DNA of 62,979 bases, counting the filler, from Sluysia triapertura (taxonomy: Eukaryota), in NCBI GenBank assembly GCA_046118255.1. It is 5 parts of 5 records of this genome, joined end to end, with 100 filler letters (N's around TTAATTAATTAA, not from the genome) between each part and the next. Parts side by side here need not be neighbours in the genome. Positions count along the whole stretch, not along the records: positions 22,899 to 34,623 come from JBJNIA010176140.1; 4 more parts are not named here. The stretch is one strand, 5' to 3'. The translations under genes were made by a program, and so were the position numbers. Every line of letters starts with the position of its first letter. Within the stretch, counting starts at the first letter, position 1. Below the pieces are notes generated by a model. That model did no database searches and was not told where the DNA came from. It saw nothing but the letters and a program-made list of their open reading frames with translations. Positions 30,170 to 30,970 of this stretch are shown here, one piece after another.

Positions 30170-30970
30170 ATACAACAAAATCACATTCACCCTCAAAATC
30201 TGCAATTCACATTCAAAAAAATTTAATCATAAACATTCTCATACATAGTTCAATAACAACATAACCAAAATCACACTTTTCAACATCACACAATTACTTT
30301 TAGAATATACCAAAACATAGGCTATAATTTACCTCCTTCTTGTCCATTAAACTACTCTCTTTCAACATATTCGTAATTCACAATCTTTTAACATCCAAAC
30401 AATAATTGCAGCCAAAACATGAATGTACATTTAAAATCTACGTAAAACATTTATATTATTTCAAATACTTAAATCATAAGCTTTCAACACTTAAGCTCAC
30501 CTTCAGTCAAAAACATTAATCGGTATCTAAAAATTCATTTTAAACACTTACGCTTTATCTTAAAATATTAGAACTACAATTGCATCTTAAAACACCAAGT
30601 ATACATTTAAAATTAATTCAAAATATCTTTAGTCATAATTTCTCAACATTCAACCTCGCAGGGATTTAAAGATATTAGGTTCTAAAGAAATATTTCTTAT
30701 AGAAAGAAAGTTCTTGTTTTACCTTCTAAAAGAATTTATGCATTTTTGAATTAATAATAATAGCGATATTGTTATTATTATTTTAATTTTACATTATTTT
30801 AAATCTATTAATTATTAATTTTGTAACTACCACCATTAACGGTAACACTATTAAGTCATACATACAGTCGTTGTCATCGTTAATGGTGGTTGGTCATCAT
30901 TGTGAAGCATTGCTAACCAACCAAAGTAATTATTTTCATTATTTTTGTATCTCTGGTTGGACAACCAATT
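30170..30970 (+). repeat. Cassette repeat copy 2
   Basis: Homologous to 15800-16860 (-) and 45712-46545 (+). Hairpin at 30829-30890; palindrome TGGTTGGACAACCA at ~30955. Confidence 0.8.

What the first reader, a model, noticed from the sequence alone, without database searches (positions are those of the whole stretch)
30829..30890. Position-conserved ~62-nt hairpin with compensatory substitutions in all three cassette copies
Seen: copy 2 accaccattaacg...cgttaatggtggt (13-bp perfect stem); copy 1 at 15906-15966 with tcaatgttgac/gtcaacattga (11-bp perfect); copy 3 at 46474-46538 gccaccaatcgacaga/tctatcaactggtggt (imperfect). In element orientation, copies 1 and 2 differ by paired changes (tcaatg/cattga versus ttaacg/cgttaa), while the loops are unrelated and the overall size is kept. 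Inference: selection on structure. Candidates are a pre-miRNA-like precursor, a rolling-circle or cruciform signal, or an RNA ligand for the adjacent CCCH proteins.
Basis: partly seen in the sequence, partly recalled or inferred. Interest (0 to 1): 0.7.

Follow-up and report, generated by a model that had tools for sequence, protein, structure and literature searches.

The report
Co-evolving hairpin array in duplicated unit
A roughly 1-kb stretch of non-coding DNA, present three times in this animal sequence, ends in two or three hairpins whose arms changed together, as small-RNA precursors or mobile-DNA signals do, but its job is unproven.

Summary
The hairpin is real at all three places. Copies 1 and 2 share a 17-bp stem with two clean Watson-Crick swaps (plus one T-A versus G·T). 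Across three copies the arms group by copy, not by side (edit distance 2-4 within, 4-8 between). Independent drift reproduces this in at most 0.6% of simulations, even when good pairing is assumed. Two-copy covariation alone is not significant (50/500 shuffles), and copy 3 is homologous mainly by position. All are 55-65 nt and sit at one end of a 1-1.4-kb repeated unit, just upstream of unrelated gene pieces. No Rfam match, rolling-circle nonamer, subterminal repeat, Helitron end or ~35-bp pri-miRNA stem was found, and copy 3 has no CCCH gene. Best guess (0.35): a lineage-specific cluster of miRNA-like precursor hairpins. Rivals are a mobile-element signal (0.25) and neutral arm-to-arm copying (0.25). 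Genome-wide copies and small-RNA data could not be checked.

The parts
30829..30890 (+). HP1 copy 2: 18-bp stem (16 Watson-Crick, 1 G·T, 1 A·C), 26-nt loop.
15906..15966 (-). HP1 copy 1: 17-bp stem (15 Watson-Crick, 2 mismatches), 27-nt loop
46475..46537 (+). HP1 copy 3: 15-16-bp stem, both arms 1 nt shorter with a different mid-stem; 3 A·C on + read as G·U on -
15809..15871 (-). HP2 copy 1: 17-19-bp stem, 25-nt loop, the most stable 70-nt window of the 63 kb; each arm is itself a near-palindrome
30909..30969 (+). HP2 copy 2: one arm 18/19 identical to copy 1, the other 11/18; pairs better on the - strand through G·U
46553..46606 (+). degenerate hairpin at the HP2 position in copy 3 (-8.4 kcal/mol at best); homology not established
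31011..31065 (+). HP3, copy 2 only: 15 Watson-Crick pairs plus 1 wobble of 17; on the - strand it extends to about 28 pairs with a basal stem
25618..25685 (+). HP0: 12-bp perfect stem at the far end of the block shared by copies 1 and 2; no hairpin at this place in copy 1
30150..30660 (+). G-poor, C-rich tract of copy 2 (G 4.5%, C 21%), followed by a TTA-rich stretch up to HP1
16263..16950 (-). G-poor, C-rich tract of copy 1 (G 3.7%, C 22%); 137/180 identical to copy 2 in the best block
45720..46260 (+). G-poor tract of copy 3 (G 4.1% in 45720-46110), the main evidence for its homology
16895..17252 (-). far block of copy 1 (16895-17097 and 17222-17252), 83% identical to 25721-25910 and 30/31 to 25675-25705; a tRNA-like piece (17154-17222, +) sits between the two parts
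25675..25910 (+). far block of copy 2, separated from its tract by about 4.2 kb of other sequence that includes an N gap
15058..15663 (-). 201-aa open frame 146 nt after HP2 of copy 1: 10-residue repeat plus one C-x9-C-x6-C-x3-H finger (Pfam zf-CCCH_UNK E 5.5e-5, below cut-off)
31070..32431 (+). inferred 3-exon, 318-aa frame starting 5 nt after HP3: internal fragment of eukaryotic primase small subunit plus a CCCH finger with the same spacing
46714..46913 (+). broken small-GTPase-like 5' piece after copy 3 (early stop and a frame break); weak support only

Best explanation
The hairpin is one of 2-3 similar stem-loops (16-19 bp stems, 19-33 nt loops, 20-45 nt apart) at one end of a 1-1.4-kb non-coding unit that was duplicated at least twice. 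Most likely it works as RNA: a lineage-specific cluster of miRNA-like precursor hairpins on one transcript, in which pairing and size matter more than sequence. Mid-stem changes probably arise by arm-to-arm template switching and are kept because the stem must stay paired. Individual hairpins are gained and lost between copies. SHOWN: the hairpins, the unit, the arm-coupled change. INFERRED: transcription, strand, Drosha/Dicer processing, selection as opposed to neutral copying.
For: Cassette hairpins rank 1, 3, 4 and 9 (HP0 8) of 803 loci in a 70-nt folding scan of both strands (12,406 windows). Unrelated hairpins share one geometry and cluster-like spacing. Five of the six tallied stems reach 16 or more pairs with wobbles, the structural criterion quoted in PMC12539619 (passages). 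Arms group by copy; drift is rejected, and neutral copying needs about one event per lineage to reach 5-8%. HP2 shows one conserved and one drifting arm that still pairs through G·U (18/19 versus 11/18). Non-Watson-Crick positions lean to G·U on one strand, 10 versus 4.
Against: No stem reaches the ~35 bp described as optimal for pri-miRNAs (PMC10576077 passages). The best are about 28-29 pairs, and 4 of 6 HP1 copy/strand combinations add 3 or fewer basal pairs. HP1 arms (12/17, 13/17) are no more conserved than the tract (137/180) or the far block (153/185), and no 7-nt seed is shared by all three copies (read). The wobble bias is not significant (p 0.18) and could come from the unit's strand-biased composition. 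The HP2 arm conservation has p 0.01-0.14 before correcting for post hoc choice. No Rfam family matches at gathering score; E-value hits to miRNA models are far below cut-off. No expression data.
Confidence: 0.35

Rival explanations
1. The unit is an old non-autonomous, gene-fragment-capturing mobile element of rolling-circle (Helitron/Helentron-like) type. The hairpins are single-stranded DNA signals (terminator or end structure) that diverged between subfamilies under selection for transposition.
For: Three dispersed copies in two orientations, in three different contigs of the window. Each is followed, on the same strand, by different gene pieces: primase fragment plus CCCH finger, repeat plus CCCH finger, GTPase-like piece. 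Read from the hairpin end, the order hairpin, microsatellite-like stretch, central tract, end block resembles DINE-1/HINE layouts, where subfamily-specific changes in stems are reported (PMC4067079, PMC7492417 passages). Helitrons capture promoters and 5' gene ends (PMC4224331 passages).
Against: No second subterminal repeat: best hairpin-to-far-end matches p 0.03-0.83 over 8 tests. No TIR or direct end repeat (p 0.06-0.48). No CTRR about 11 nt after any hairpin: 2 of 9 flanks have one, at +22 and +23. Loops of 25-33 nt exceed the 3-22 nt spacer and the 16-20 nt palindrome described. No central tandem period (best z 2.4-3.5). No Rep/helicase among 424 segment scans against Pfam.
Confidence: 0.25
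2. No function: old inverted repeats in a duplicated stretch are kept matched by neutral template switching between arms.
For: Coupled changes cluster in mid-stem (positions 8-13) between invariant ends, and copy 3 is 1 nt shorter in both arms, as block copying would give. Arms evolve as fast as flanks. HP2 and HP3 have decayed in some copies. Template switching can create and maintain stems (PMC8794818 passages).
Against: The simulation gives the pattern in only 0.5-1% of runs at 0.3 events per lineage and 5-8% at 1 per lineage. In that paper instantaneous compensations were enriched at 4-nt loops, unlike these 26-33 nt loops. It does not explain several unrelated hairpins of one geometry side by side.
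Confidence: 0.25
3. The hairpins lie in the 5' UTR of the downstream genes and regulate them, for example as ligands of the CCCH proteins or as cleavage or translation-control elements.
For: The array ends 146, 5 and 108 nt before the first ATG of a same-strand frame in copies 1, 2 and 3; the copy 2 start is an inferred exon.
Against: CCCH patterns occur at 2 places in six frames, none near copy 3. Each is a single finger below the Pfam cut-off. Recalled, not tested: Unkempt-type fingers read short single-stranded motifs rather than long stems. Wobbles lean to the opposite strand.
Confidence: 0.08

Closest known systems
Clustered animal pre-miRNA hairpins, including suboptimal hairpins helped by neighbours (PMC10576077, PMC12539619; passages read)
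   Same: 55-65 nt imperfect hairpins with about 16-18 pairs, several within about 250 nt; loops and one arm diverge between paralogues.
   Different: Stems shorter than ~35 bp, loops large, no shared seed in HP1, no Rfam match, no expression evidence.
DINE-1 / HINE non-autonomous Helentrons (PMC4067079, PMC7492417; passages read)
   Same: Non-coding dispersed repeat with a stem-loop at one end, a microsatellite-like stretch and a central tract; stems change between subfamilies; palindromic arms (HP2).
   Different: No matching subterminal repeat at the other end, loops longer than described, 2-3 hairpins in a row, no clear central tandem period, ends not defined.
Canonical Helitrons with captured gene pieces (PMC4224331, PMC4067079; passages read)
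   Same: Chimeric gene fragments directly beside a repeated non-coding unit.
   Different: No short palindrome followed by CTRR; no Rep/helicase in the window.
Circovirus-type rolling-circle origin with palindrome regeneration (PMC2690592; passages read)
   Same: Arms kept matched by strand switching; hairpin in non-coding DNA.
   Different: No AxTAxTAC in any of 6 hairpin strands, loop 26-33 nt, no Rep gene.

Membership tests
animal miRNA gene | imperfect hairpin with at least 16 paired nucleotides | tested here: met
   5 of 6 tallied stems reach 16 or more pairs with wobbles on at least one strand (HP2 of copy 2 has 13 in its 14-nt inner register); criterion from PMC12539619
animal miRNA gene | total pri-miRNA stem of about 35 bp (optimal substrate, not absolute) | tested here: not met
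   best about 28-29 pairs (HP3 copy 2 on -, HP1 copy 2 on +); value from PMC10576077
animal miRNA gene | reads from both arms, 5' homogeneity, 2-nt offsets | not testable with these tools
animal miRNA gene | match to a known miRNA family, or a conserved seed among paralogues | tested here: not met
   Rfam gathering 0 hits; E-value hits at most 23.8 bits against cut-offs of 58 or more for the miRNA models; HP1 arms 12/17 and 13/17 identical; only one HP2 arm is conserved
Helentron / HINE / DINE-1 | 12-15 bp subterminal inverted repeats at both ends | tested here: not met
Helentron / HINE / DINE-1 | 5' inverted repeat 3-22 nt from the subTIR and a short 3' palindrome | tested here: not met
   loops 25-33 nt for HP1 and HP2; a far-end hairpin (HP0) exists only in copy 2
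Helentron / HINE / DINE-1 | insertion into TT, shown by empty paralogous sites; high copy number | not testable with these tools
   rest of the genome not available
canonical Helitron | 16-20 nt palindrome about 11 nt before a terminal CTRR | tested here: not met
   2 of 9 flanks hold CTRR, at +22 and +23
canonical Helitron | 5' TC end and AT target site | tested here: inconclusive
   unit ends cannot be fixed from three copies; the far end of copy 3 scores within the null
CRESS-virus rolling-circle origin | AxTAxTAC-type motif in the loop | tested here: not met
   0 of 6 strands; motif as in PMC2690592
CRESS-virus rolling-circle origin | adjacent Rep gene | tested here: not met
   no Rep family in the Pfam scans; frameshifted remnants shorter than the scanned segments could be missed
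LTR retroelement leader (LTR, PBS, packaging hairpins) | second LTR copy and a primer-binding site | tested here: not met
   the candidate LTR end occurs once per unit (2 matches in the window); the tRNA-like piece is about 68 nt, in copy 1 only, and is followed by a T-run

The most novel reading that the evidence does not exclude
An undescribed gene-shuffling element whose fixed part is a portable 5' module (end block, G-poor tract, hairpin array). It launches chimeric genes from captured host pieces (primase fragment, Unkempt-like finger, GTPase start), and the hairpin array serves both as its replication or end signal and as a source of small RNAs.
Probability: 0.08. Interest if true: 0.7.

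Novelty: new member of a known kind. Interest (0 to 1): 0.3.

Why it matters
If it is a miRNA-like cluster, it is a new lineage-specific family caught during birth and death of hairpins, with arm-to-arm copying as the visible route to new seeds. That would be a natural test of the template-switch model in long-loop hairpins. If it is a mobile-element signal, it marks a gene-capturing repeat that lacks the standard Helitron and Helentron ends. With three old copies in one window neither is established, and hairpins in repeats are common, so present interest is modest.

Tried and rejected
Rfam: 0 hits at gathering score over the window. E-value scans of the three copies gave only sub-threshold hairpin-shape hits and a tRNA-like piece. 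ARAGORN found 0 genes. A covariance model from copies 1 and 2 found no further copy with E below 0.3 (29 matches at E up to 10); a three-copy DNA HMM found no fourth unit. MAFFT misaligned copy 3, so pair counts rest on 2 of 3 copies. Protein relatives: none for the 217-aa frame or the 201-aa frame at near lengths; the all-representatives search gave 1 hit, a primase small subunit. PHROGs gave 3 weak hits in 14 proteins. Phage and plasmid DNA searches with 30700-31100 found no match. A link between the cassette tract and the 38/55/56-kb repeats appeared with one scoring matrix (32.4, null max 28.4) and vanished with a composition-matched one (z 2.0 or less): rejected. The tract as a decayed gene: no frame is clearly open. 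LTR/PBS reading: rejected. Six 13-16 nt arm motifs occur in 0 papers of the held library; a four-term Helentron search also returned 0. The bacterial promoter scan is not informative for an animal. Not run: the GTDB scan (prokaryotes only), structure prediction and complex prediction.

Full report
Setting. The window is 24.7% GC and looks animal: it holds a glycine amidinotransferase end (PDB E 5e-21), leishmanolysin-like, EGF, GPCR and DUF4512 pieces, a Tigger-type transposase and a Gypsy-type RNase H. Four identical N-flanked linkers split it into five contigs, and the three copies lie in three different ones.

Observation. The stems are as described. Of 65 perfect inverted repeats of 10 bp or more, only the copy 2 stem (13 bp) and the copy 1 stem (11 bp) exceed 30% GC. 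None of 60 block shuffles produced two such stems (mean 0.13). The full stem is 17 bp in copies 1 and 2, with 15 Watson-Crick pairs in each, and 15 bp in copy 3, with 12 Watson-Crick pairs and three A·C that read as G·U on R. Folding z-scores run from -2.5 to -3.9, and R is the more stable strand in all three 91-96 nt windows. With tight boundaries copy 1 is slightly more stable on F.

The unit. Copies 1 and 2 align over about 700 bp through the hairpin (118 against 23.6±1.9) and share a far block at 83%. Copy 2 carries about 4.2 kb of extra sequence between that block and the tract, and copy 1 a tRNA-like piece. Copy 3 is tied in by the G-poor tract (z 5.9 and 5.6) and by three collinear blocks with copy 2, of which only the best (40.1) exceeds the null. 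A covariance model from copies 1 and 2 gives copy 3 only 15.6 bits, E 0.48. On F the layout is far block, tract with about 4% G, TTA-rich stretch, then hairpins.

More hairpins than reported. HP2 follows in copy 1 (15809-15871) and copy 2 (30909-30969), HP3 in copy 2 only (31011-31065), and HP0 sits at the far end of copy 2. In a 70-nt scan of both strands these loci rank 1, 3, 4, 8 and 9 of 803. One HP2 arm is 18/19 identical between copies and the other 11/18. The first figure has p 0.01-0.14 depending on background, before any correction.

Is the co-change real? Between copies 1 and 2, three pairs changed on both sides: two clean swaps and one T-A versus G·T. Shuffling reaches this in 50 of 500 trials. 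Given that one copy was picked for good pairing, drift leaves the other as well paired in 1.3-3.1% of runs and gives two swaps in 2.7-8.3%. Adding copy 3, arms differ by 2, 2 and 4 edits within copies and by 4-8 between copies. Independent drift gives this in 2e-5 to 2e-4 of runs, and in 0/9228, 1/1065, 9/3334 and 4/692 runs conditioned on all three pairing as well as observed. So the arms are coupled. The simulations use substitutions only and assumed branch lengths. A neutral block copy between arms gives the pattern in 0.5-1% of runs at 0.3 events per lineage and 5-8% at one event. The changes cluster in mid-stem and copy 3 is shortened in both arms, which fits template switching (PMC8794818, passages). 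Copying is therefore the likely mutational route; whether selection keeps the result is favoured, not shown. Wobbles lean 10 to 4 towards R (p 0.18) and are confounded by strand-biased composition.

Neighbours. A same-strand reading frame starts 146, 5 and 108 nt after the array. Copy 1 has a 201-aa frame with a 10-residue repeat and one CCCH finger. Copy 2 has an inferred 3-exon, 318-aa frame without internal stops; it holds residues matching 148-236 of the eukaryotic primase small subunit (E 1.5e-6) and a finger of the same spacing. Copy 3 has a broken GTPase-like start (Pfam Roc E 0.16, PDB E 0.08-1.6; a likeness to RABL2 is recalled, not tested). CCCH patterns occur twice in six frames, none at copy 3. 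No relatives of the two frames were found at near lengths.

Mechanism. I rank a miRNA-like precursor cluster first (0.35), because several unrelated hairpins share precursor size, pair count and cluster spacing, tolerate wobbles and are gained and lost singly. Against it, no stem reaches the ~35 bp optimum, HP1 arms are no better conserved than flanks and Rfam has no match. A rolling-circle mobile element (0.25) fits the dispersal and the gene pieces, but fails the subterminal-repeat, CTRR and loop-size tests. No Rep/helicase appeared in 424 segment scans: 271 of 342 N-free segments of 42 aa or more (69 low-complexity or low-GC ones and 2 others left out), 149 chosen mostly shorter ones, and 4 repeats. 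Neutral copying stands at 0.25 and a 5' UTR or CCCH-ligand role at 0.08. It works like a clustered hairpin precursor; it is not shown to be a member of any family.

Papers. Passages only, no supplements: PMC8794818, PMC4067079, PMC7492417, PMC12539619, PMC10576077, PMC4224331, PMC2690592. Other titles were seen only in search listings. Six arm motifs were found in 0 papers of the held library, which lacks most subscription papers; supplementary miRNA tables, not searched here, could hold them.

Verdict. A real, arm-coupled hairpin array in a three-copy repeat. Function is open and cheap to decide with the full genome and small-RNA reads. Interest 0.3.

Noticed in passing
window 11812-11911, 22799-22898, 34624-34723, 51635-51734: Four identical 100-nt linkers (44 N, a 12-nt all-frame-stop spacer, 44 N): the window is five joined contigs, so distances between copies may not be real.
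   Followed up: partly
window 19326-19376 (+), 33132-33195 (+), 52430-52492 (-): A GC-rich 55-65 nt motif in three copies that folds into a stem with an inner helix (-14 to -20 kcal/mol); its reverse strand holds a splice-donor-like site. No Rfam hit.
   Followed up: partly
window 37650-38000 (-): Four spaced copies of a short palindromic motif (CTAGCC, about 8 nt, GTCTAG), 80-180 nt apart, seen by eye.
   Followed up: no
window 3423-3773 (-) and 13409-13769 (+): A second repeat family with the same C-rich then TTA-rich layout (z 8.7), unrelated in sequence to the cassette; one copy runs into a broken EGF-repeat frame.
   Followed up: partly
window 38329-38807, 55850-56334, 56797-56944: A third strand-biased repeat family (336/452 identical in the longest pair); no link to the cassette under composition-matched scoring.
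   Followed up: partly
window 31400-32050 (+): Internal fragment of eukaryotic primase small subunit inside an otherwise orphan frame, with the conserved SGRRG stretch of the database hits altered; the rest of the primase was not matched.
   Followed up: partly
window 17154-17222 (+): tRNA-like piece (Rfam 28.2 bits, just under cut-off) with a GCA anticodon position, missing 5' acceptor strand and a following T-run; present in copy 1 only.
   Followed up: partly
window 44854-45000 and 35398-35724 (-): Two successive leishmanolysin-like exons about 9 kb apart; copy 3 lies just upstream on the same contig, with its R strand in the gene's sense. No further exon was found.
   Followed up: partly
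window 12343-12783 (-): 147-aa open frame with a weak DUF3587 match (E 0.007), flanked by a short hairpin at 12405-12448.
   Followed up: no
window 7533-7653 and 51001-51120; 26943-27035 and 61553-61670; 52734-52871 and 57484-57690: Further two-copy repeats; the last pair translates to similar short peptides that look gag-like (recalled, no Pfam hit).
   Followed up: no
window 55234-55307 (+) and 6638-6693 (-): Other strong hairpins outside the cassette (about -21 kcal/mol).
   Followed up: no
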